Assembly (NCBI GenBank): GCA_964016885.1
Contig: OZ024749.1
Span: 3,224,001-3,288,000 of the forward strand
Source of the DNA: Eledone cirrhosa
Lineage: Eukaryota
Length of the DNA: 64,000 bases
Reading direction: 5' to 3'
This document shows, in pieces, positions 6,825-31,651 of this stretch (positions are counted from its first letter, which is position 1; each line of letters begins with the position of its first letter). Made by a program: the position numbers and the translations under genes. The notes below the pieces were generated by a model, which had not been told where the DNA came from, searched no databases, and saw only the letters and a list, made by a program, of their open reading frames with translations.

Positions 6825-7207
6825 ATAAATGCTCTGAAATAGCGATATATATGTGAATATAGACATAGAATATTCGAAAATATTCTGTATGTTTATAATA
6901 AACATTTTGAAGACCTAATCGCTATAGAATAGAATACGTCACGTATTACAATTAGATTCTCGATAAAAGCAAGGGAAGTAATCTACGCGTTTCATTCTCG
7001 TTAGAAATCATCAGGACTACATATCCAGTGCTTTTATCGAGAATGACACAGCTAGAGACTTATAGAATACTTAGCTGTGTACAGGAACTGGTTTGAAAGA
7101 GCGGTTGCCGGTCCGGCAGAAATTAGAAATTGGAATAAATGCTCTGAAATAGCGATATATATGTGAATATAGACATAGAATATTCGAAAATATTCTGTAT
7201 GTTTATA
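6821..7207 (-). mobile_element. Inverted ~1.25 copies of the 310-bp unit
   Basis: Reverse complement of the array unit (tggaataaatgctc at 6821 and 7131). Starts directly after (TA)n. Confidence 0.9.
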
Positions 7208-10200
7208 TTTTCGAATATTCTATGTCTATATTCACATATATATCGCTATTTCAGAGCATTTATTCCAATTTCTAATTTCTGCCGGACCGGCAACCGCTCT
7301 TTCAAACCAGTTCCTGTACACAGCTAAGTATTCTATAAGTCTCTAGCTGTGTCATTCTCGATAAAAGCACTGGATATGTAGTCCTGATGATTTCTAACGA
7401 GAATGAAACGCGTAGATTACTTCCCTTGCTTTTATCGAGAATCTAATTGTAATACGTGACGTATTCTATTCTATAGCGATTAGGTCTTCAAAATGTTTAT
7501 TATAAACATACAGAATATTTTCGAATATTCTATGTCTATATTCACATATATATCGCTATTTCAGAGCATTTATTCCAATTTCTAATTTCTGCCGGACCGG
7601 CAACCGCTCTTTCAAACCAGTTCCTGTACACAGCTAAGTATTCTATAAGTCTCTAGCTGTGTCATTCTCGATAAAAGCACTGGATATGTAGTCCTGATGA
7701 TTTCTAACGAGAATGAAACGCGTAGATTACTTCCCTTGCTTTTATCGAGAATCTAATTGTAATACGTGACGTATTCTATTCTATAGCGATTAGGTCTTCA
7801 AAATGTTTATTATAAACATACAGAATATTTTCGAATATTCTATGTCTATATTCACATATATATCGCTATTTCAGAGCATTTATTCCAATTTCTAATTTCT
7901 GCCGGACCGGCAACCGCTCTTTCAAACCAGTTCCTGTACACAGCTAAGTATTCTATAAGTCTCTAGCTGTGTCATTCTCGATAAAAGCACTGGATATGTA
8001 GTCCTGATGATTTCTAACGAGAATGAAACGCGTAGATTACTTCCCTTGCTTTTATCGAGAATCTAATTGTAATACGTGACGTATTCTATTCTATAGCGAT
8101 TAGGTCTTCAAAATGTTTATTATAAACATACAGAATATTTTCGAATATTCTATGTCTATATTCACATATATATCGCTATTTCAGAGCATTTATTCCAATT
8201 TCTAATTTCTGCCGGACCGGCAACCGCTCTTTCAAACCAGTTCCTGTACACAGCTAAGTATTCTATAAGTCTCTAGCTGTGTCATTCTCGATAAAAGCAC
8301 TGGATATGTAGTCCTGATGATTTCTAACGAGAATGAAACGCGTAGATTACTTCCCTTGCTTTTATCGAGAATCTAATTGTAATACGTGACGTATTCTATT
8401 CTATAGCGATTAGGTCTTCAAAATGTTTATTATAAACATACAGAATATTTTCGAATATTCTATGTCTATATTCACATATATATCGCTATTTCAGAGCATT
8501 TATTCCAATTTCTAATTTCTGCCGGACCGGCAACCGCTCTTTCAAACCAGTTCCTGTACACAGCTAAGTATTCTATAAGTCTCTAGCTGTGTCATTCTCG
8601 ATAAAAGCACTGGATATGTAGTCCTGATGATTTCTAACGAGAATGAAACGCGTAGATTACTTCCCTTGCTTTTATCGAGAATCTAATTGTAATACGTGAC
8701 GTATTCTATTCTATAGCGATTAGGTCTTCAAAATGTTTATTATAAACATACAGAATATTTTCGAATATTCTATGTCTATATTCACATATATATCGCTATT
8801 TCAGAGCATTTATTCCAATTTCTAATTTCTGCCGGACCGGCAACCGCTCTTTCAAACCAGTTCCTGTACACAGCTAAGTATTCTATAAGTCTCTAGCTGT
8901 GTCATTCTCGATAAAAGCACTGGATATGTAGTCCTGATGATTTCTAACGAGAATGAAACGCGTAGATTACTTCCCTTGCTTTTATCGAGAATCTAATTGT
9001 AATACGTGACGTATTCTATTCTATAGCGATTAGGTCTTCAAAATGTTTATTATAAACATACAGAATATTTTCGAATATTCTATGTCTATATTCACATATA
9101 TATCGCTATTTCAGAGCATTTATTCCAATTTCTAATTTCTGCCGGACCGGCAACCGCTCTTTCAAACCAGTTCCTGTACACAGCTAAGTATTCTATAAGT
9201 CTCTAGCTGTGTCATTCTCGATAAAAGCACTGGATATGTAGTCCTGATGATTTCTAACGAGAATGAAACGCGTAGATTACTTCCCTTGCTTTTATCGAGA
9301 ATCTAATTGTAATACGTGACGTATTCTATTCTATAGCGATTAGGTCTTCAAAATGTTTATTATAAACATACAGAATATTTTCGAATATTCTATGTCTATA
9401 TTCACATATATATCGCTATTTCAGAGCATTTATTCCAATTTCTAATTTCTGCCGGACCGGCAACCGCTCTTTCAAACCAGTTCCTGTACACAGCTAAGTA
9501 TTCTATAAGTCTCTAGCTGTGTCATTCTCGATAAAAGCACTGGATATGTAGTCCTGATGATTTCTAACGAGAATGAAACGCGTAGATTACTTCCCTTGCT
9601 TTTATCGAGAATCTAATTGTAATACGTGACGTATTCTATTCTATAGCGATTAGGTCTTCAAAATGTTTATTATAAACATACAGAATATTTTCGAATATTC
9701 TATGTCTATATTCACATATATATCGCTATTTCAGAGCATTTATTCCAATTTCTAATTTCTGCCGGACCGGCAACCGCTCTTTCAAACCAGTTCCTGTACA
9801 CAGCTAAGTATTCTATAAGTCTCTAGCTGTGTCATTCTCGATAAAAGCACTGGATATGTAGTCCTGATGATTTCTAACGAGAATGAAACGCGTAGATTAC
9901 TTCCCTTGCTTTTATCGAGAATCTAATTGTAATACGTGACGTATTCTATTCTATAGCGATTAGGTCTTCAAAATGTTTATTATAAACATACAGAATATTT
10001 TCGAATATTCTATGTCTATATTCACATATATATCGCTATTTCAGAGCATTTATTCCAATTTCTAATTTCTGCCGGACCGGCAACCGCTCTTTCAAACCAG
10101 TTCCTGTACACAGCTAAGTATTCTATAAGTCTCTAGCTGTGTCATTCTCGATAAAAGCACTGGATATGTAGTCCTGATGATTTCTAACGAGAATGAAACG

Positions 10201-10952
10201 CGTAGATTACTTCCCTTGCTTTTATCGAGAATCTAATTGTAATACGTGACGTATTCTATTCTATAGCGATTAGGTCTTCAAAATGTTTATTATAAACATA
10301 CAGAATATTTTCGAATATTCTATGTCTATATTCACATATATATCGCTATTTCAGAGCATTTATTCCAATTTCTAATTTCTGCCGGACCGGCAACCGCTCT
10401 TTCAAACCAGTTCCTGTACACAGCTAAGTATTCTATAAGTCTCTAGCTGTGTCATTCTCGATAAAAGCACTGGATATGTAGTCCTGATGATTTCTAACGA
10501 GAATGAAACGCGTAGATTACTTCCCTTGCTTTTATCGAGAATCTAATTGTAATACGTGACGTATTCTATTCTATAGCGATTAGGTCTTCAAAATGTTTAT
10601 TATAAACATACAGAATATTTTCGAATATTCTATGTCTATATTCACATATATATCGCTATTTCAGAGCATTTATTCCAATTTCTAATTTCTGCCGGACCGG
10701 CAACCGCTCTTTCAAACCAGTTCCTGTACACAGCTAAGTATTCTATAAGTCTCTAGCTGTGTCATTCTCGATAAAAGCACTGGATATGTAGTCCTGATGA
10801 TTTCTAACGAGAATGAAACGCGTAGATTACTTCCCTTGCTTTTATCGAGAATCTAATTGTAATACGTGACGTATTCTATTCTATAGCGATTAGGTCTTCA
10901 AAATGTTTATTATAAACATACAGAATATTTTCGAATATTCTATGTCTATATT

Positions 10953-10957
<5 letters not shown>
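7206..10957 (+). mobile_element. Tandem array of 12 apparently identical 310-bp units, each with a type I hammerhead (retrozyme-like)
   Basis: tcgaatattctatgtc recurs at 7211, 7521, 7831 and so on to 10931 (period 310). No ORF. Ends in (TA)n. Confidence 0.9.
7356..7441 (+). ncRNA. Minimal type I hammerhead ribozyme (repeats every 310 bp up to about 10850)
   Basis: gtagtc CTGATGA t ttct aacg agaa t GAAA cgcg TA gattac. Helix III is the palindrome ACGCGT. Helix I is extended by ttctcgataaaagca/tgcttttatcgagaa. Predicted cleavage after 7414. Confidence 0.85.
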
Positions 10958-11002
<45 letters not shown>

Positions 11003-17535: not shown

Positions 17536-18588
17536 TTTAAGTCCCCATAATTTTAATGTCCGTATTGGTGCATACCTGATGTGCTATTCCTGGTGGAGTA
17601 GTAATTTCGTAACTTATTTGGTAAATTAGTAATAAACTTTCTTTATTAGTCGTAGCCGTCTTCGTGGAGGACCACGTTATAGTAATGCACAAGCGCATTG
17701 AACTTAATTCTCACTATAATTCAACCCTACACGATGTTCGAGAAGGGTTTTTGCTTTTAATAAAATGTTCAGGTTCAATTAAATAGTTTCACTGTAAGCA
17801 ATTTTACTAGCAAGACTTGAGTCGACCCTAAACTGTGGTAAATTACATTTACCTGACACAGATTTAGTTCCTCATATACAAAGTTACTGCATTTTTCCGA
17901 CTGAGCAATCATTGTTCATACGTCTGTTGGATCAACATTACGTTAGTTCTACCAAAAAGCATTAACAAAATTTGAATAGTAATGTATTATCAGAGGAAGA
18001 CTTAACGCTCTAATTCTCAGGAATATCTACTATCAAATGAGGTAGTCTAAGTGTATGTATGGCTGCCATTCTGTCTGTATAAGTGTGTGCATGTGATTCG
18101 TTGTATTAATATACGTGACAGATTGTTTAAGTTACTGCATGTCTATTGCCTTCCATGTATGTGAAATGTGAAATTTTATGTCGTAAAATGTTTACATATG
18201 CCTCTTTAATTATTACACATGCACAATATTCATAATAGGAAATGTTTCAAGCTGCCGTATTCAATCATTATATGTATATCTTTATATTCGGTCAACAGGA
18301 AATGTAAGAGAATTATTAATTAAAGCAAGCTCACATATGGATAAGTATATCTAGATAGGTAAGTCAAAGTGACATAAACTTGTTTAGAAAACGATGATCA
18401 TATTGAGAAGATATATGACGCCACGTGAATTTAAATCACAAAAATATGAAATACAATAGAGGAATGAATTTATGGACGCTCAAACACACATCTCTCTACC
18501 TCATTCTCTCTCTCTCTTTACCACACACACACATATATATACATATTTATATGTATATACATATGCATATATATTACACATACACACA

Positions 18589-18693
<105 letters not shown>

Positions 18694-18762
18694 GTGTGTG
18701 TGTGTGAATATTAAAACAAACGTACTGCGTGGTTGCAAATGGGTTACATATGAATAAAGTTA

Positions 18763-18866
18763 GTCCTTCATCAGTGATCTTCCAACCTTCATTGGTATTT
18801 CATCGCTTTAAAGATCATATACCTCCGGTTGGTGCGAGCAACGGCTAAAGAAAGTCGTTGGGACAC
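18763..18866 (-). ncRNA. Non-circularly permuted hammerhead-like ribozyme with k-turn, family A copy 1
   Basis: Minus strand reads gtgtcc-caacgact ttcttt agccgttg-ctcgca-ccaacc-GGA-ggtaT A tgatc-tttaa-agcgat GAAA tacc-AATGAA-ggttgg-aa-gatca CTGATGA a ggac. All hammerhead core nucleotides are present. Helix I is tgatc/gatca and helix III is ggtat/atacc. Predicted cleavage lies between 18818 and 18817. Confidence 0.75.
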
Positions 18867-19405
18867 ATAAATAAGGGGAACGAGCGAGACTGTAAACAAT
18901 CAAAGATGGTAATGCAACGAAAAGAGAGGAAGAAAGAGTCAAGTCCCAGATTTCTATGAATATAAGTTCGGTGAAATCGTAGACGAGAGAGAATAAAGAC
19001 CATCAAACCTAGTCGAAATGTGAGCAAGGAAGGAATTCCGCACAGGTCAAACGGGAGGAAGAAGGAGTCTAGTCCCTGAATTCGGTGAACATAAGTTCTG
19101 TGAAATCGTAGACAAGAGAGAAAAAAGTAACAACCAGCCTGGTCAAGCGTGCGTGAGAAAAGAATTACGCACAGGCCAAACGGGAGGAAGTAGGAGAGGA
19201 AGTAGCAGAGAGTGAGTGAGTGAAGGGTGAGGAAGAGGCTAACAGAGAGAGTGACTGTTAGAGAGGGTAAAGGGAGGTCAAAGATACAGAGAAAGAGGAA
19301 GCAGTAAGAACGAAATAGACAGGTCACTACAGAGGAAAATATATGTGCGAATATTAAAACTAACTTGCTGCGTGGTTGCAAATGTGTTACATAAGAATAA
19401 AGTTT

Positions 19406-19509
19406 GTCCTTCATCAGTGATCTTCCAACCTTCATTGGTATTTCATCGCTTTAAAGACCATATACCTCCGGTTGGTGCGAGCAACGGCTAAATTAAGTCG
19501 ATAGGACAC
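19406..19509 (-). ncRNA. Permuted hammerhead-like ribozyme, family A copy 2
   Basis: Direct repeat of copy 1, 643 bp away. The helix I change tgatc to tggtc keeps pairing through G-U. Confidence 0.7.
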
Positions 19510-19870
19510 GTAAATAAAAGGAACGAGCGAGACTGTAAACAATCAAAGATGGTAAGCAACGAAAAGTGAGGAAGAAAGAGTAAAGTCACAGATTTCTATG
19601 AATATAATTTCGGTTTCTCTCTTGTCTACGATTTCACAGCTGTTATGTTTACCGAATTCAGGGACTAGACTCCTTCTACCTCCCGTTTGACCTTTGCGGA
19701 ATTCCTTCCTTGCTCACATTTAGACTAGGTTTGATGGTCTTTATTCTCTCTCGTCCACGATTTCACCGAACTTATATTCATAGAAATCTGGGACTTGACT
19801 CTTTCTTCCTCCCTTTTCGTTGCATTACCATCTTTGATTGTTTACAGTCTCGCTCGTTCCCCTTATTTAC

Positions 19871-19968
19871 GTGTCCCAACGACTTTCTTTAGCTCGCACC
19901 AGCCGTAGGTATATGATCTTTAAAGCGATGAAATATCAATGAAGGTTGGAAGATCACTGATGAAGGAC
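19871..19968 (+). ncRNA. Permuted hammerhead-like ribozyme, family A copy 3 (inverted, part of the 5' hairpin deleted)
   Basis: ctcgca ccagcc gta ggtaT A tgatc tttaa agcgat GAAA tatc aatgaa ggttgg aa gatca CTGATGA aggac. The stem substitutions give G-U pairs. Confidence 0.65.
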
Positions 19969-20546
19969 TAACTTTATATATATATATATATGTGTAGATG
20001 TTATATTTAATTTGTTTGGATACAAGCAAAATATTTTTATATCTGATATAAAGCACTCAACAAATTATTGGAGATTCCAACCAGAATGGTTGCATTTTTT
20101 CAGCATATGTCAATATTTATTTATAAAACTAACTTATATTATATTTTATCTGAAGAGAGCTGACCATAGTTTGCCTTGGTGGCCCTTGAAATATGTATAA
20201 TGAAATAAATATGCTTTTATAAATATAGTTCCCATTTGTTAATATATTGTATATATATATATATTATTATAATGTATTATGTTATATTGCATTGTGTTAT
20301 ATATAATTCCTGCTCTATATAACCAAATTTGTTTAGATTTAGGTTAGTTGCTTTGGACTATATTTGTAATATGGTTCTTAATGTTATCTACATCCTTAGT
20401 TATTCTTATTATATATTTTTATTATTTTTATTTTTATTTTTATTTTTATTATCATATATTTTTGCAAGACTTTAGTTTATGTACACTCCATATTCTTCGG
20501 AGTTTCCGGCTTGTATCTGCCGATATTACTTCTTGTTGTTTTGATT

Positions 20547-20584
20547 GCCCTGATGAGTCCTTAATAGGACGAAACATTGTCGGC
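20547..20584 (+). ncRNA. Canonical minimal type I hammerhead ribozyme
   Basis: gcc CTGATGA gtcc ttaata ggac GAAA cattg TC ggc, located near the 3' end of an insert flanked by (TA)n. Confidence 0.85.
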
Positions 20585-20629
20585 TGATAAAAACTTTTGA
20601 TGTATTAAAGGATTCTTTGTTTTACTCTC

Positions 20630-23104: not shown

Positions 23105-25560
23105 TGTGTTCCTGGGATTTTTCCACGGACTATGATAGAAGATGCTGGAGATTCTGGTTGTGGGAGGATGGATTGCTGGAGCGATGGATCAGTGGTGTAA
23201 AATCCTGGTATGGTAGTGAGGAAGTGGAGAGTAGTGGGGTGCGTGCGCAACAGGAAGTGGTCAGAGTTACGGCACTGGTCAGAGGATCAAGGCAGGGCGA
23301 AGAGGTGAGAGGAAGGAGATAGCAGTAGGGAGTTGACAGCAGGCAGTAGTGAGAGAGGCTGACAGATATAGAGAGGCCTGTATGGGGTGTGGAATGTGTG
23401 TATGTGTGTGCGGAGGTGCCGTGGACACGGAAGGAGAGGGGTAGGTGTGATGGGGGGGGGGAGAGGGCGGCGGTGTGGGGAGTTGGCGTGTATATTAGTG
23501 GAGGTATTAGTGGGATGTGTGTGACTGGGGTGTTGAGGTGAGAGAAGGTGTTAGGGACGGTAGGAGGGAGTGTAGTGTACTGGTGTGTGTGTGCGTGTTT
23601 GGATATGAGTGTGTGTCTGTGTGTGATAGAGTGGGTGTTATTATTACCAGTAATGGGGAGGGGCTGCAATGCGGGAGTGTTAGTGGGGGTTAGTGGTGGT
23701 AGTGTGTGTGGAGTCGGTGGTGTATCGGTGCGTACGTAGGTGTGGGTGATCGTATGTGTGATGGTGTTTGTTCGTGTGGGTGTGGTGCGGGGCAAGGTGA
23801 GTTGGACTGGGGGGTGTGTGAGTAATATTAGTGGTGGGGTGGTCAGATGTGGGGTCTGTAGGGTGAAGCTGGTGTGCTGCTCGACGATGAGGCGAGCGGC
23901 GTTGGACTTATGGCATTGGATCAGGCCATAGACTGTGGCCTGGTGGGCGAATATCCAGGGATTCCAAAGTGGCGGGTGATGGGGAACGCCCGCCGAGACG
24001 AATATCGCGGAGGTGCTCCGTGAACTGATCCACCAGGTCACGTCCCGTCTGTCCAAAGTAGGTTGCAATGCACTCCGTGCAGCGAAGTCCATAGACGAGG
24101 TTGGAAGAGGTGCAGCGAAGGCATGCCGAACAGAGAGAGAGTGGCCGTTGGGACCCTGGAAGGTGGTGGTGTCGGTGTTGTGGGGGCAGGTGTGGCAGCG
24201 AGGTCTGGAGCAGGGAAGGGAACCGGGGGTGGTGGGGTAGCGAGCTGTGGACGAGGAGGAACCGGAGATTACGCGCGCGTTTGAAGGAGGGGAGGCTGGG
24301 TATGGAAAGATGGGAGAGGTGGAGGTCTCGGACAGGAGGCGTCGGAAGGGGCGAAGGATGATGCGGTGGGGCGGGAGACAGCACAGGCGCGAGCCTAGGC
24401 GACGTGGACAAGGGAGGGAGGGTAACCTCTCCGGATGAATGGCTGACTAGAGAAAAGGCCTGGGACTCGAAATCAGCATCTCGGCTGCAGAGACGGTTGA
24501 TCCGGAGGAGTTGGGAGTAGAGAATGGAGTGTTTGGTGTGTGTAGGGTGGGGGGAGGTGAAGTCGAGGTAGGAGTGGGAGTCGGTGGGTTTGAAGAAGGC
24601 GGAGGTGACGAGGGAGCGCTGGGAGGGGTCGATGGTGACGGATATGTCCAAGAAGTGGACGTGGGTGATGGAGATAGAGGTGGTGAAGTGGAGGGAGGGG
24701 TAGTAGGAGCAGAAGAAGGAGAGAAAGGAGTCGAGCCGTTCTCGGGTGAGGGTCGTGGCTCCGATACAATCGTCGATGTAACGACCTTACAGTTCTGGCG
24801 TGGAGCTGGGCAAATATTTGTGCCTCAACAGGCCAACGAAAAGGTTGGCATAGATTGGGCCCATGCTAGTGCCTATGCTACCCCCGTGATCTGTTGGTAA
24901 AACTCCCCCGAGAAATAGAAGCAGTTAAGGGTGAGGACCAGCTCAGCGAGGCGAAGGAGGATGGGGGTGGAGGAGATGGGGGAGGGGCGAAGTTCGAGGT
25001 AGTGCCGGAGGGCACGTAGGCCGTCGGCGTGGGGGTTGACTCTGTAGAGGGACTTAATATATTGGGTGAAGAGGAGTGTGTGTGGTCCGGGTGGGAAAGT
25101 GAGGGAGTAGAACTGGCGAAGGGCGTGGTTGGGGATGTGGGAGGGGATGGAATCAATAATGGTGGATATGAGTTCTGTGAGACAGTTGCAAGCGGAGACG
25201 ATGGGGCGGCCTGGGTTGTCGAGTTTGTGGGTCTTTGGGGGTGCGGGCGTGCGGATGATAGATGGGAAGCGGTGGGAGTGGGGGCATGAGGCAGGAGGAG
25301 ACGAGGTGTTGGGTGAGGGCGGAATCTTGCTTTTGGTAGAGGCGTGTGGTGTCGGACGGTAGAGGGCGGTAGAAGAAGGGTGTTACGGAGCTACCTGAGG
25401 GCTTCGGCCGCGTAGAGGTCTGTGCGCCACACCACCGCGGCGCCTCCCTTCTCCGCCGGTTTGATGACGATGTCGTCGCGGCTACGGAGGGAGAGGAGGG
25501 CGAGGAATTCGCCGCGTGTGATGTTATGCAGTTTGGAGCGGCGGCGGAATTCAAGCGATA
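23105..25560 (-). mobile_element. Penelope-like retroelement, 5'-truncated and frameshifted (RT plus C-terminal GIY-YIG endonuclease)
   Basis: Motifs DIVIKPAEKGGA, GTSMGPIYANLF, RYIDD (about 24769-24783), FLDISV, FKPTDSHSYLDFTSPHP..SQLLRINRLCS and CTSSNLVYGLRCTECIATYFGQTGR..EH. Bounded by (TA)n. Confidence 0.92.
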
Positions 25561-25583
25561 CATATATATATTTATACATATAT

Positions 25584-25641
<58 letters not shown>

Positions 25642-25645
<4 letters not shown>

Positions 25646-25987
25646 GGGAACCAGAAAATTGCTTATTGTGATCCACCTCGTGGTTAAGAAAGCCAGCTTC
25701 ATGGATGGTTTTAACGTACGGTTAGGGGTAACTCTACAAGTTTGTAAGAAATCCGTTCAATTTTGGAGTATAAAGTAGAAAAGAGAAAACGCAGGTAAGC
25801 ATTAAGAGAAGTATTAAATCCAGGTATTTACGACCGCTTCATTGGTAAGTGCTACCTTATATTGCTATACTGCAAATAGCTGCCACTCAATTATAATTGT
25901 TGTTCACATCCAAATTTTCAAAAAATGAAACGGTCGTAAATACCTGGATAAAATTCTTCTCTTAATGCTTACCTGTGTTTTCTCTTT

Positions 25988-30332: not shown

Positions 30333-30445
30333 ATTCATTTCTACAGTTACATTTTCAAGAGTTAATGTTACTAGGAACGGTTCTATTAATAATAGAACTG
30401 TTTCTAGTAACATTAACTCTTGAAAATGTAACGGTAGAAATGAAT
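30333..30445. repeat. 113-bp near-perfect palindrome
   Basis: attcatttctacagttacattttcaagagttaatgttactag...ctagtaacattaactcttgaaaatgtaacggtagaaatgaat. Confidence 0.9.
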
Positions 30446-31651
30446 CAAATTGCCCTTTACATAATAATTGCCGAGATAAAAACTTACTATACAAATGCAT
30501 AGTAAAAACTAGAGATAAAATATATAACCATATAGCAGCCACTTCTATAACATTTAAAGAACGCTGGTATAATCATAAATATATATTTAATAGATCCGAT
30601 AAAAAATGTTCTACATCACATTCACATCTAATTTGGTACTTAAAGAACAATAATATTGACTATTCAATCTCTTGGGGAACGATTTCGAAAGCATCCTCAT
30701 ACCGAAATGTGGCTCTCTCAAGAATCTGTCATTTGGGTATTGAAGACATTTTTTATATACTTACCTGCCAAAACTCTATCAAATTAAAGAAAACAATGTT
30801 CAGCTCCTGCAGACATCGCCAAAAAATGACTTTTAATCTATAGTATAAAAATCACTTATTCACATTCTATATGTCTTCACTATTCTTCTGTCGATGCTTA
30901 GTTGTGATTTATAAATTATATGTTTCCTTTCATGTAATATTTTTACAAATTATTTTACAAATGATATTCTTTTCCAATTGATATTCTTCTTACTGCTTTT
31001 TTCATTGATATTTTTTATATTTTTTAATTGATATTTCTTAATTGATATTTCTTAATTGATATTTTGAAATATATCATTTTTCATTTTTCTAAATACACTC
31101 ATGATGCCTGTAATCATATTTTCTTCCTAATTGACTATATAGATAATATCTAAATGCATATATAAAAGAAAATCTCAGCTTTGAAAAAATATAATATAAA
31201 ATAACTTATAATCATATAAAATAATAATATATAAAATTTTCTCAACATACATTTCGCATTTTTTTAAGTAAATTCTAAAAGAAATGACAGATCTAACATA
31301 AATAGTGTAACTAACAAACATTGGAGTTATCTTTTCCTTTTCATTTTCTTTTTTAACTATAATCTAGCACGCATAAACATCTTCTCTTCTTAACAACATA
31401 AATACTAAAGTCTCTATAATTTTCGTTAACTTAATACTTTTCCGCAAACATCCATGATTTCAGCAAACAGGAGGAGTAGTTGGCTTTGATAAGCATCAAT
31501 AAATGCGAAACAAGGTCTTGTCAGCTTTATCTCCCCTGTTTGCTGAAAATTAAAGTACGTGAGTCTGTCACTACTCTAAAACAATAGCATAAGGTCTTCG
31601 AAATGCTTTTAATTAAGCATACAGTGTATTGCAAAATACACTATATATACA

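What the first reader, a model, noticed from the sequence alone, without database searches (positions are those of the whole stretch)
18703..19975. Family A element has PLE pseudo-LTR architecture with ribozyme-to-ribozyme spacing of 643 nt and no coding capacity
SEEN: a partial tandem plus an inverted copy between microsatellites, with two same-strand permuted ribozymes 643 bp apart and an internal duplication of an agtc..gaattt..tgaa.ataagttc.gtgaaatcgtagac block. INFERENCE: double cleavage would release a 643-nt unit RNA, so this could be a retrozyme class using the permuted ribozyme. Some microsatellite-targeting PLE clades are reported to lack canonical hammerheads, and this motif could fill that role.
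Basis: partly seen in the sequence, partly recalled or inferred. Interest (0 to 1): 0.7.

Follow-up and report, generated by a model that had tools for sequence, protein, structure and literature searches.

The report
Rearranged hammerhead ribozyme in animal retroelements
A short non-coding repeat copied thousands of times into this animal genome carries the parts of the hammerhead ribozyme in a scrambled order reported so far only from environmental RNA; it likely cuts its own transcript, and the same fold appears to be the 'missing' ribozyme of many Naiad retrotransposons.

Summary
Confirmed and extended. 18703-19986 is a non-coding insertion in TA/CA repeats: a 643-nt unit, a partial tandem unit and an inverted copy. 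Each holds the hammerhead core in order S-G-C, a non-circular permutation (Eckert 2023, metatranscriptomes only). At least eight divergent families in the genome keep it with compensatory changes in stems I and III and four extra helices (91.5% of cells paired vs 69% shuffled; 142 of 215 sites have the cleavage block vs about 1 in shuffles). New features: stem II is 0-1 bp, replaced by a four-way junction, and a kink-turn consensus sits beyond stem III. By eye, 10 of 53 published Naiad 3' ends show this S-G-C fold and 6 nematode Naiads show C-S-G, which would explain why Naiads 'lack' hammerheads. Cleavage, the circle and the 643-nt RNA are untested: no RNA run was listed, genomic 3' ends do not map to the cut, 5' ends are inconclusive, and unit length varies (632-660). 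Naiad RT hits here are all broken; one chimera points to a young Neptune element as current helper. The scan noted a rearranged hammerhead in a Penelope-like tail once before, in another genome (unchecked).

The parts
18703..19345 (-). Full family A unit, 643 nt, non-coding, pyrimidine-rich on the ribozyme strand
   Evidence: 92-96% identical full-length copies genome-wide
19346..19614 (-). 5'-truncated upstream tandem unit (unit positions 374-643), the pseudo-LTR
19614..19986 (+). Inverted 5'-truncated copy (unit positions 223-601), no tail; last bases merge with (TA)n
18763..18864 (-). Ribozyme copy 1, 5' to 3': T helix 18864-18861; Px hairpin 18860-18839; L 18837-18834; P0 18832-18827; stem III 18823-18819; H17 18818; stem I 18817-18812; linker; L' 18806-18803; 11.1 at 18802; GAAA 18801-18798; III' 18797-18794; P0' 18787-18782; I' 18780-18775; CUGAUGA 18774-18768; 10.1 at 18767; T' 18766-18763
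   Evidence: sequence; covariation
18817..18818 (-). Predicted cleavage site (after the UA of GGUAUA), by analogy with hammerhead geometry; untested
   Evidence: inference from stems I and III and PMC10085705
18787..18827 (-). Kink-turn consensus between stem III and P0 (strands 18827-18823 and 18794-18787): 3-nt bulge, G1b, A2b; 3n, G2n, A1n; predicted
   Evidence: definition PMC5061560
19406..19507 (-). Ribozyme copy 2; core intact, two mismatches in the Px hairpin; predicted cut 19461/19460
19873..19968 (+). Ribozyme copy 3 (inverted copy); core intact, 3' strand of Px deleted; predicted cut after 19913
18703..18744 (-). [quoted passage not shown]
   Evidence: matches the PLE/Naiad tail described in PMC8557442 section 6
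18926..19196 (.). Internal 129-nt duplication within the unit
18576..18702 (.). Left (AC)n/(TA)n/(TG)n target microsatellite
19976..19991 (.). Right (TA)n target microsatellite

Best explanation
Family A is a non-coding, TA-targeted mobile repeat whose unit carries the hammerhead core in the non-circular order S-G-C inside a covarying seven-helix fold, likely inherited from the 3' end of a Naiad retrotransposon, that likely cuts tandem transcripts into unit-length RNAs which a Penelope-type enzyme would copy back into the genome. Shown: architecture, copy number, the fold's covariation across families, fixed 3' ends, shared private variants in tandem units. Fold: stem III is extended by P0 through a predicted kink-turn that would bend it back so that the distal ends of P0, stem I and helix L meet; stem II is one base pair or none, stacked on a four-way junction (T, Px, L). 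Inferred steps: self-cleavage (about 0.75); circularisation of the unit and rolling reverse transcription primed at AT-rich spots 70-110 nt past the cut (about 0.5); descent from Naiad (about 0.8); present-day mobilisation in trans by a young Neptune element rather than by the decayed Naiads (about 0.45); kink-turn protein (SNU13/L7Ae family) acting as a switch (about 0.3).
For: Covariation: A1, 24 copies of 8 families, 91.5% of 528 cells paired vs 69.1% shuffled, score 0.667 vs 0.243, slid controls 30-49%; stems I and III have two-sided changes in 5 of 6 and 4 of 5 pairs; 10.1-11.1 paired in 24 of 24 with five pair types. A2, 19 copies of 7 families, adds T (89.5%) and Px (94%). Unselected tally: 142 of 215 sites have the S block, H17 is non-G in 141 of 142, 10.1-11.1 pairs in 114 of 142, G1b-A2b in 138 of 142. 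A 98-99% identical young subfamily keeps the fold with new compensations in stem I. [quoted passage not shown] Naiad_Obim and Naiad_Ovul end in the same fold with the same 23-nt GAAA-to-CUGAUGA spacing; Acropora Naiads share even the UUAAU linker (by eye). Tandem units within a locus differ 3.3% vs 5.9% between loci and share 1.63 vs 0.29 non-consensus bases per 100 nt. One SGC element is fused without a TA spacer to an open Neptune RT-GIY-YIG frame.
Against: No cleavage or RNA data. Stem II is not the canonical helix: the strand before GAAA is held in L and the strand after CUGAUGA in T; in family E (most of the 18 C-A sites) and in the Naiad_Obim/Ovul consensi 10.1 and 11.1 do not pair. 3' ends are at unit position about 601, not at the cut (1242 vs 16 forward-strand places); 5' junction excess at the cut is at most 1.5-fold. 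The circular unit folds with only 48% of bases paired, unlike the highly self-paired retrozyme circles (PMC7229834). The window's own two tandem units differ by 7.1%, more than the between-locus mean. No intact Naiad was found: 7 of 7 RT-motif hits are full of stops and 0 of 7 have the ribozyme downstream. The Neptune chimera is 1 of 30 Neptune loci and can also be a later insertion at a truncated Neptune end. Nested folding of single copies is unremarkable (z -1.0, 0.16, 0.20). A1 and A2 used the copies closest to family consensus, and relatedness inflates those scores.
Confidence: 0.62

Rival explanations
1. The fold is a hammerhead-derived recognition tail that binds the PLE protein (and perhaps a kink-turn protein) and no longer cuts, or cuts too slowly to matter; copies arise from long linear read-through transcripts.
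For: Stem II strands are sequestered in L and T; insertions read through up to five predicted sites; no clear genomic footprint of the cut; an earlier scan note reached this verdict for a different element (e1-8034208, not tested here).
Against: All core letters, the A15.1-U16.1 pair (24 of 24), a non-G H17 (141 of 142) and the 10.1-11.1 pair with five pair types are kept across diverged families; nematode Naiads carry textbook C-S-G hammerheads with full stems in the same place (by eye).
Confidence: 0.2
2. The ribozyme cuts, but no circle forms: it only trims the 5' end of read-through transcripts, and tandem insertions come from incompletely cut linear multimers or repeated template jumps, as in ordinary PLE pseudo-LTR formation.
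For: Architecture equals that of ordinary PLEs; weak self-pairing of the unit; 4 of the 5' ends in 44 loci fall at 525-528, one at an internal non-TA junction; several tandem pairs differ by 5-9%.
Against: Arrays of 3-5 units with shared private variants (L009, L235) and priming at internal AT-rich spots fit a circular template.
Confidence: 0.3
3. The active form is a domain-swapped dimer between neighbouring units or two RNAs, as proposed for minimal PLE hammerheads, so the S-G-C order is only a register within tandem arrays.
For: Minimal PLE hammerheads are thought to work as dimers (PMC4209133); tandem copies are common.
Against: All partners lie within 100 nt at fixed spacing (124 of 142 at offset 16); the local helices L, P0, T and Px covary; swapping does not create a canonical stem II.
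Confidence: 0.07

Closest known systems
Type-SGC non-circularly permuted hammerhead ribozymes (HRIMA-1 and variants; Eckert et al. 2023, PMC10085705)
   Same: Block order S-G-C; CUGANGA, GAAA, UH, stems I and III with covariation; short linker from stem I to the stem II side.
   Different: Theirs come from metatranscriptomes, none from a known organism's genome, with a true stem II and a helix joining the other sides of stems I and II. Here: animal genome, thousands of copies; stem II 0-1 bp opening into a four-way junction; stem III extended by P0 through a kink-turn consensus. Their supplements were not read.
Naiad Penelope-like elements (Craig et al. 2021, PMC8557442)
   Same: TA targets, 5' truncation, partial tandems, inverted copy, one-ended 30-40-nt tail; by eye the same S-G-C fold at the 3' ends of 10 of 53 consensi, including Naiad_Ovul and Naiad_Esco, which they labelled HHR_half_core.
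   Different: Family A encodes no protein; the paper reports no canonical hammerhead and did not resolve the half cores.
Metazoan non-LTR retrozymes (Cervera and de la Pena 2020, PMC7229834; bioRxiv 10.64898/2026.07.22.740005)
   Same: Non-coding tandem units with one hammerhead core per unit, derived from PLE pseudo-LTRs, under 45% GC.
   Different: Those carry type I hammerheads in 150-450-bp units and give highly self-paired circles shown by experiment; here S-G-C, 632-660-nt units in family A and its sister H, weak self-pairing, circles not shown.
Kink-turns (box C/D, Kt-23; Huang and Lilley 2016, PMC5061560)
   Same: 3-nt bulge, G1b, A2b, A1n, G or U at 2n; family F reads like box C/D.
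   Different: Placed in a ribozyme periphery; family E has Watson-Crick pairs instead; structure and protein binding untested.

Membership tests
Hammerhead ribozyme (type SGC) | Core letters CUGANGA, GAAA, U16.1-A15.1, H17 not G | tested here: met
   H17 non-G in 141 of 142 sites; GAAA and CUGANGA were search requirements
Hammerhead ribozyme (type SGC) | Stems I and III with covariation in S-G-C order | tested here: met
Hammerhead ribozyme (type SGC) | Stem II between the strand after CUGANGA and the strand before GAAA | tested here: inconclusive
   one pair only (114 of 142 sites; absent in family E); helices L and T stack there instead; one-pair stem II has precedent
Hammerhead ribozyme (type SGC) | Helix joining the other sides of stems I and II as in HRIMA-1 | tested here: not met
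   strand 5' of I' pairs with the 5' leader (P0), not with the 3' tail
Hammerhead ribozyme (type SGC) | Site-specific self-cleavage | not testable with these tools
   no assay; genomic footprint inconclusive
Classical hammerhead types I-III (Rfam) | Circularly permuted block order, Rfam model match | tested here: not met
   no hammerhead model among 6 matches at E up to 10 in 18700-20000
Non-LTR retrozyme | Non-coding tandem units, one ribozyme per unit | tested here: met
Non-LTR retrozyme | Type I hammerhead | tested here: not met
   order is S-G-C
Non-LTR retrozyme | Expressed as unit-length circular RNA | not testable with these tools
   no RNA holder listed
Naiad PLE (autonomous) | ORF with N-terminal GIY-YIG, CxC and RT with IFD | tested here: not met
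   no such ORF in the element or beside SGC motifs in the fetched loci
Non-autonomous PLE derivative | PLE insertion signature: TA target, 5' truncation, partial tandem, inverted copy, one-ended tail | tested here: met
   vs PMC8557442 section 6
Non-autonomous PLE derivative | 3' end homologous to an autonomous PLE | tested here: inconclusive
   structural match to published Naiad 3' ends read by eye only; no alignment run; no intact partner in this genome
Kink-turn | 3-nt bulge, G1b-A1n and A2b-G2n, flanked by two helices | tested here: met
   sequence level only: standard in families A, C, F, G, H; U at 2n in B, D; absent in E; G1b-A2b 138 of 142, A1n at least 125 of 142 (the loci were selected for G1b-A2b)
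Kink-turn | Kinked 3D structure, L7Ae-family binding | not testable with these tools
   needs FRET, gel or binding assay

The most novel reading that the evidence does not exclude
Naiad retrotransposons from comb jellies to molluscs, spiders and nematodes use the second, non-circular class of hammerhead topologies (S-G-C and its rotation C-S-G); the cephalopod-type version is a kink-turn-gated ribozyme that a host SNU13/L7Ae-family protein switches on, and it has spawned a superfamily of circular-RNA retrozymes that outlived their Naiad parents by hijacking Neptune enzymes.
Probability: 0.25. Interest if true: 0.92.

Novelty: new variant of a known kind. Interest (0 to 1): 0.8.

Why it matters
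Non-circularly permuted hammerheads were reported only from environmental RNA, with no known host or role. This puts one in an animal genome in thousands of copies and ties it to a defined retrotransposon clade. It offers a concrete answer to an open point in PLE biology (why Naiads seem to lack the otherwise universal hammerhead) and explains the unresolved 'half cores' of Craig et al. The architecture (kink-turn beyond stem III, four-way junction instead of stem II) is a hammerhead periphery I did not find in print (open-access library only) and suggests how a scrambled chain can close the core and be regulated by a protein. Standard descriptors miss it, so ribozyme counts in invertebrate genomes are probably too low. 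A one-day transcription assay tests the central claim.

Tried and rejected
RNA evidence: no RNA holder listed; runs X1-X3 are contigs of one sample of unrecorded kind and show neither ends nor strand. Metagenome contigs: 0 hits for the family pattern. Exact octopus-Naiad core pattern with one mismatch: 0 hits in G000. Search with L121 upstream DNA was swamped by another repeat; its ribozyme end gave 3 matches; Naiad-like relic ribozymes (L121/L186, L187, L188, L219, L220) have no ORF beside them. Other PLE fragments near SGC copies (L040, L041, L084, L098, L101, L135) were rejected as partners: the three read in full (L040, L041, L135) are separated by TA runs or other sequence, and L135's element ends in a canonical type I hammerhead. 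5'-end footprint of the cut: inconclusive. Nested folding gives no signal. Within/between-locus statistics were discarded because the chosen unit held a microsatellite; only its core consensus, spacings and Neptune search are used. The family E row of the kink-turn table rests on one out-of-register copy and was not used; E was read from the three copies printed below it. Weak Rfam snR66 hits over the core (24-26 bits vs 65) are treated as chance box C/D-like words. A coding role for the 201-codon frame was rejected. Chance origin of the motif was rejected.

Full report
Observation. The element spans 18703-19986 between (AC)n/(TA)n and (TA)n. It consists of a 643-nt unit (18703-19345), a 5'-truncated tandem unit (19346-19614) and an inverted copy (19614-19986). 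CUGAUGA cores lie at 18774 and 19417 on the minus strand and at 19957 on the plus strand. The 129-nt internal duplication is real. A 201-codon stop-free frame has no Pfam match near a cut-off. About 40 nt of tail are present at the left end only.

Family. In the 3.0-Gb genome G000 the unit gave 4742 first-look candidates, 40 scored, with full-length copies at 92-96%. An exact core-plus-3'-end pattern has 1242 places on one strand. Across 80 segments in 44 loci the mean divergence from consensus is 3.2%; 23 segments end at unit position 601, others at 621-643; 5' ends are scattered. Unit spacing is 632 in a five-unit array and 635-660 in a sister subfamily. This is the insertion pattern described for Naiads and other PLEs: 5' truncation, partial tandem, inverted copy, one-ended 30-40-nt tail, (TA)n targets (PMC8557442 section 6).

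The ribozyme. Read 5' to 3' the motif has the cleavage block first (stem III strand, UH, stem I strand), then GAAA with the other stem III strand, then the other stem I strand with CUGAUGA: order S-G-C, the non-circular permutation of Eckert et al. 2023. No Rfam hammerhead model matches (6 matches at E up to 10, none a hammerhead). A second family sits at window 51137 (1442 candidates), and pattern searches gave many more: 248 hits vs 0 control, 486 vs 3, 180 vs 8 (which includes an unrelated satellite). Clustering 168 distinct sites gave at least eight families with a fixed 23 nt between GAAA and CUGAUGA. On 24 of these 168, chosen as closest to their family consensus, family E left out, 91.5% of 528 cells pair vs 69.1% in shuffles, covariation score 0.667 vs 0.243, slid controls 30-49%. 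An extended alignment of 19 copies from 7 families, family G left out, gave 93.9% vs 75.6%; one of its five measures (further pair types) fell below the shuffles. Relatedness inflates such scores, so I also ran an unselected tally: 142 of 215 distinct sites have a pairing S block upstream vs mean 1.04 in 200 shuffles; H17 is non-G in 141 of 142 (copies are not independent, and at family level 8 of 8 is not significant alone).

What is new in the fold. (a) Stem II is one pair: 10.1-11.1 pairs in 24 of 24 aligned copies with five pair types and in 114 of 142 sites overall. The strand before GAAA pairs with a 5' leader (helix L), the strand after CUGAUGA pairs further upstream (helix T), and a hairpin Px lies between them, making a four-way junction. 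In families D, E and H, T and L can run right up to the core, so 10.1 and 11.1 need not pair. A natural hammerhead with a one-pair stem II is fast (PMC3088659 passages). (b) Stem III is extended by helix P0 through a 3-by-6 loop that fits the kink-turn consensus of PMC5061560 (passages): standard in A, C, F, G, H, U at 2n in B and D, Watson-Crick in E. A 50-degree kink would bring the end of P0 back to the distal ends of stem I and L, to which it is tied by one-nucleotide linkers; Eckert et al. flag this connectivity problem for some SGC ribozymes. The kink and any protein binding are predictions.

Link to Naiads. Craig et al. found no canonical hammerhead in Naiads but listed unresolved cores and half cores, among them Naiad_Ovul and Naiad_Esco. 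I read by eye the last 330 or so bases of 53 of their 54 Naiad consensi. Ten show S-G-C with stems I and III (Bfor, Chem-3, Amil, Aacu, Anas, Movir-2, Ptep, Obim, Ovul, Esco, the last degenerate), most with L and P0, and Bfor, the three Acropora, Obim and Ovul also with T and Px; Obim and Ovul have the 23-nt spacing and the kink-turn words. Six nematode Naiads (Nbra-1 to -3, Hcon, Hpol, Asuum) show C-S-G with full stems I-III. The other 37 showed neither in view; five bivalve ends look twister-like. S-G-C, G-C-S and C-S-G are circular permutations of one another, so the clade may share one inverted topology (inference). None of this was aligned by program.

Who moves it. In G000 a Naiad-type RT motif has 7 hits, all with many stops, none with the ribozyme downstream; Naiad-like ribozyme relics lack ORFs. 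This agrees with the paper's statement that cephalopod Naiads are remnants. Yet an A-like subfamily is 98-99% identical between copies. In L137 a member of it is fused, with a few bases of microhomology and no TA spacer, to an open 760-codon RT plus C-terminal GIY-YIG frame of a 99-100% identical family with 1800 candidates; I call it Neptune from its domain order and cysteine linker (label and recall), and it has its own type I hammerhead. The fusion is 1 of 30 loci of that family and no second one was found, so trans-mobilisation by Neptune is a lead, not a result.

RNA cycle. 3' junctions with TA fall about 70 nt past the predicted cut (1242 forward places) and rarely near it (16), so a cut 3' end is not the primer site. 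5' junctions on one strand: 131 within 30 nt, 45 at the cut window, 45 further upstream; after allowing for the element's own TATA this is at most a 1.5-fold excess. Insertions read through up to five sites. Tandem units share private variants (3.3% vs 5.9% divergence; 1.63 vs 0.29 shared non-consensus bases per 100 nt; 15 of the 39 pairs come from one array, and without it my hand sum of the rows gives 4.4% and 0.92). This fits rolling reverse transcription of a circle but also homogeneous linear multimers. Against a typical retrozyme circle: 48% pairing of the circular unit and 7.1% difference between the window's own units. No RNA run was available.

Literature seen. PMC10085705: abstract, introduction, sections 7, 13, 15, first part of 18, passages; supplements not read, and they may hold SGC variants closer to this fold. 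PMC8557442: passages, section 6, supplement passages. bioRxiv 10.64898/2026.07.22.740005: first fifth and passages; supplements not seen. PMC4209133: first quarter. PMC7229834, PMC5061560, PMC3088659: passages. Searches listed no paper linking non-circular hammerheads to retroelements or animal genomes; the library lacks most subscription journals.

Verdict. The fold is real (about 0.93) and works like a hammerhead by every sequence test but a conventional stem II; it is a new structural variant of type SGC in a new setting. Cleavage 0.75, circle 0.5, Naiad descent 0.8, Neptune helper 0.45. New variant of a known kind; interest 0.8.

Noticed in passing
window 51090-51400 (-): Copy of family B, a sister non-coding element with the same S-G-C fold; 1442 candidates in the genome.
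   Followed up: yes
window 20544-20588 (+): Canonical type I hammerhead, Rfam 29.2 bits vs gathering 34, in a different repeat.
   Followed up: no
window 7205-10963: 310-bp unit in 12.1 copies at 100% identity, each with CUGAUGA followed by GAAA, plus an inverted copy near 7014: a very young type I retrozyme-like array or an assembly artefact.
   Followed up: no
window 23130-25756 (-), 30424-30843 (+), 40528-41466 (+): Broken frames with PLE-like RT and GIY-YIG-like words (labels by eye).
   Followed up: no
window 53212-55034 (-): Two long frames resembling a LINE ORF1 with a zinc knuckle (label by eye).
   Followed up: no
L137:449-3960 (G000:C2:369558000-369563000): SGC element fused directly to a young open RT-GIY-YIG (Neptune-type) element.
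   Followed up: partly
PMC8557442 supplement, 3' ends of Naiad-1 to -3_Nbra, Hcon, Hpol, Asuum: By eye, complete type C-S-G hammerheads with full stems I-III; only two natural CSG sequences were reported in PMC10085705.
   Followed up: partly
PMC8557442 supplement, 3' ends of Naiad Mgal, Bpla, Mphi, Scon, Mmer: Twister-like motif instead of a hammerhead (label recalled, agrees with note e1-9935298).
   Followed up: no
PMC8557442 supplement, 3' ends of oyster and hemichordate Naiads (CGi, Sglo, Olur, Tgra, Pmar, Skow, Pfla) and Chem-2: Another conserved structured-looking motif beginning CGGGUG, unidentified: a candidate third ribozyme class in the same slot.
   Followed up: no
L199, L210, L226-L230: Older family with GAAA 22 nt before CUGANGA and a different upstream arrangement; pairing not worked out.
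   Followed up: no
L237-L243: Seven decayed Naiad-type RT relics with an insertion-in-fingers-sized segment.
   Followed up: partly
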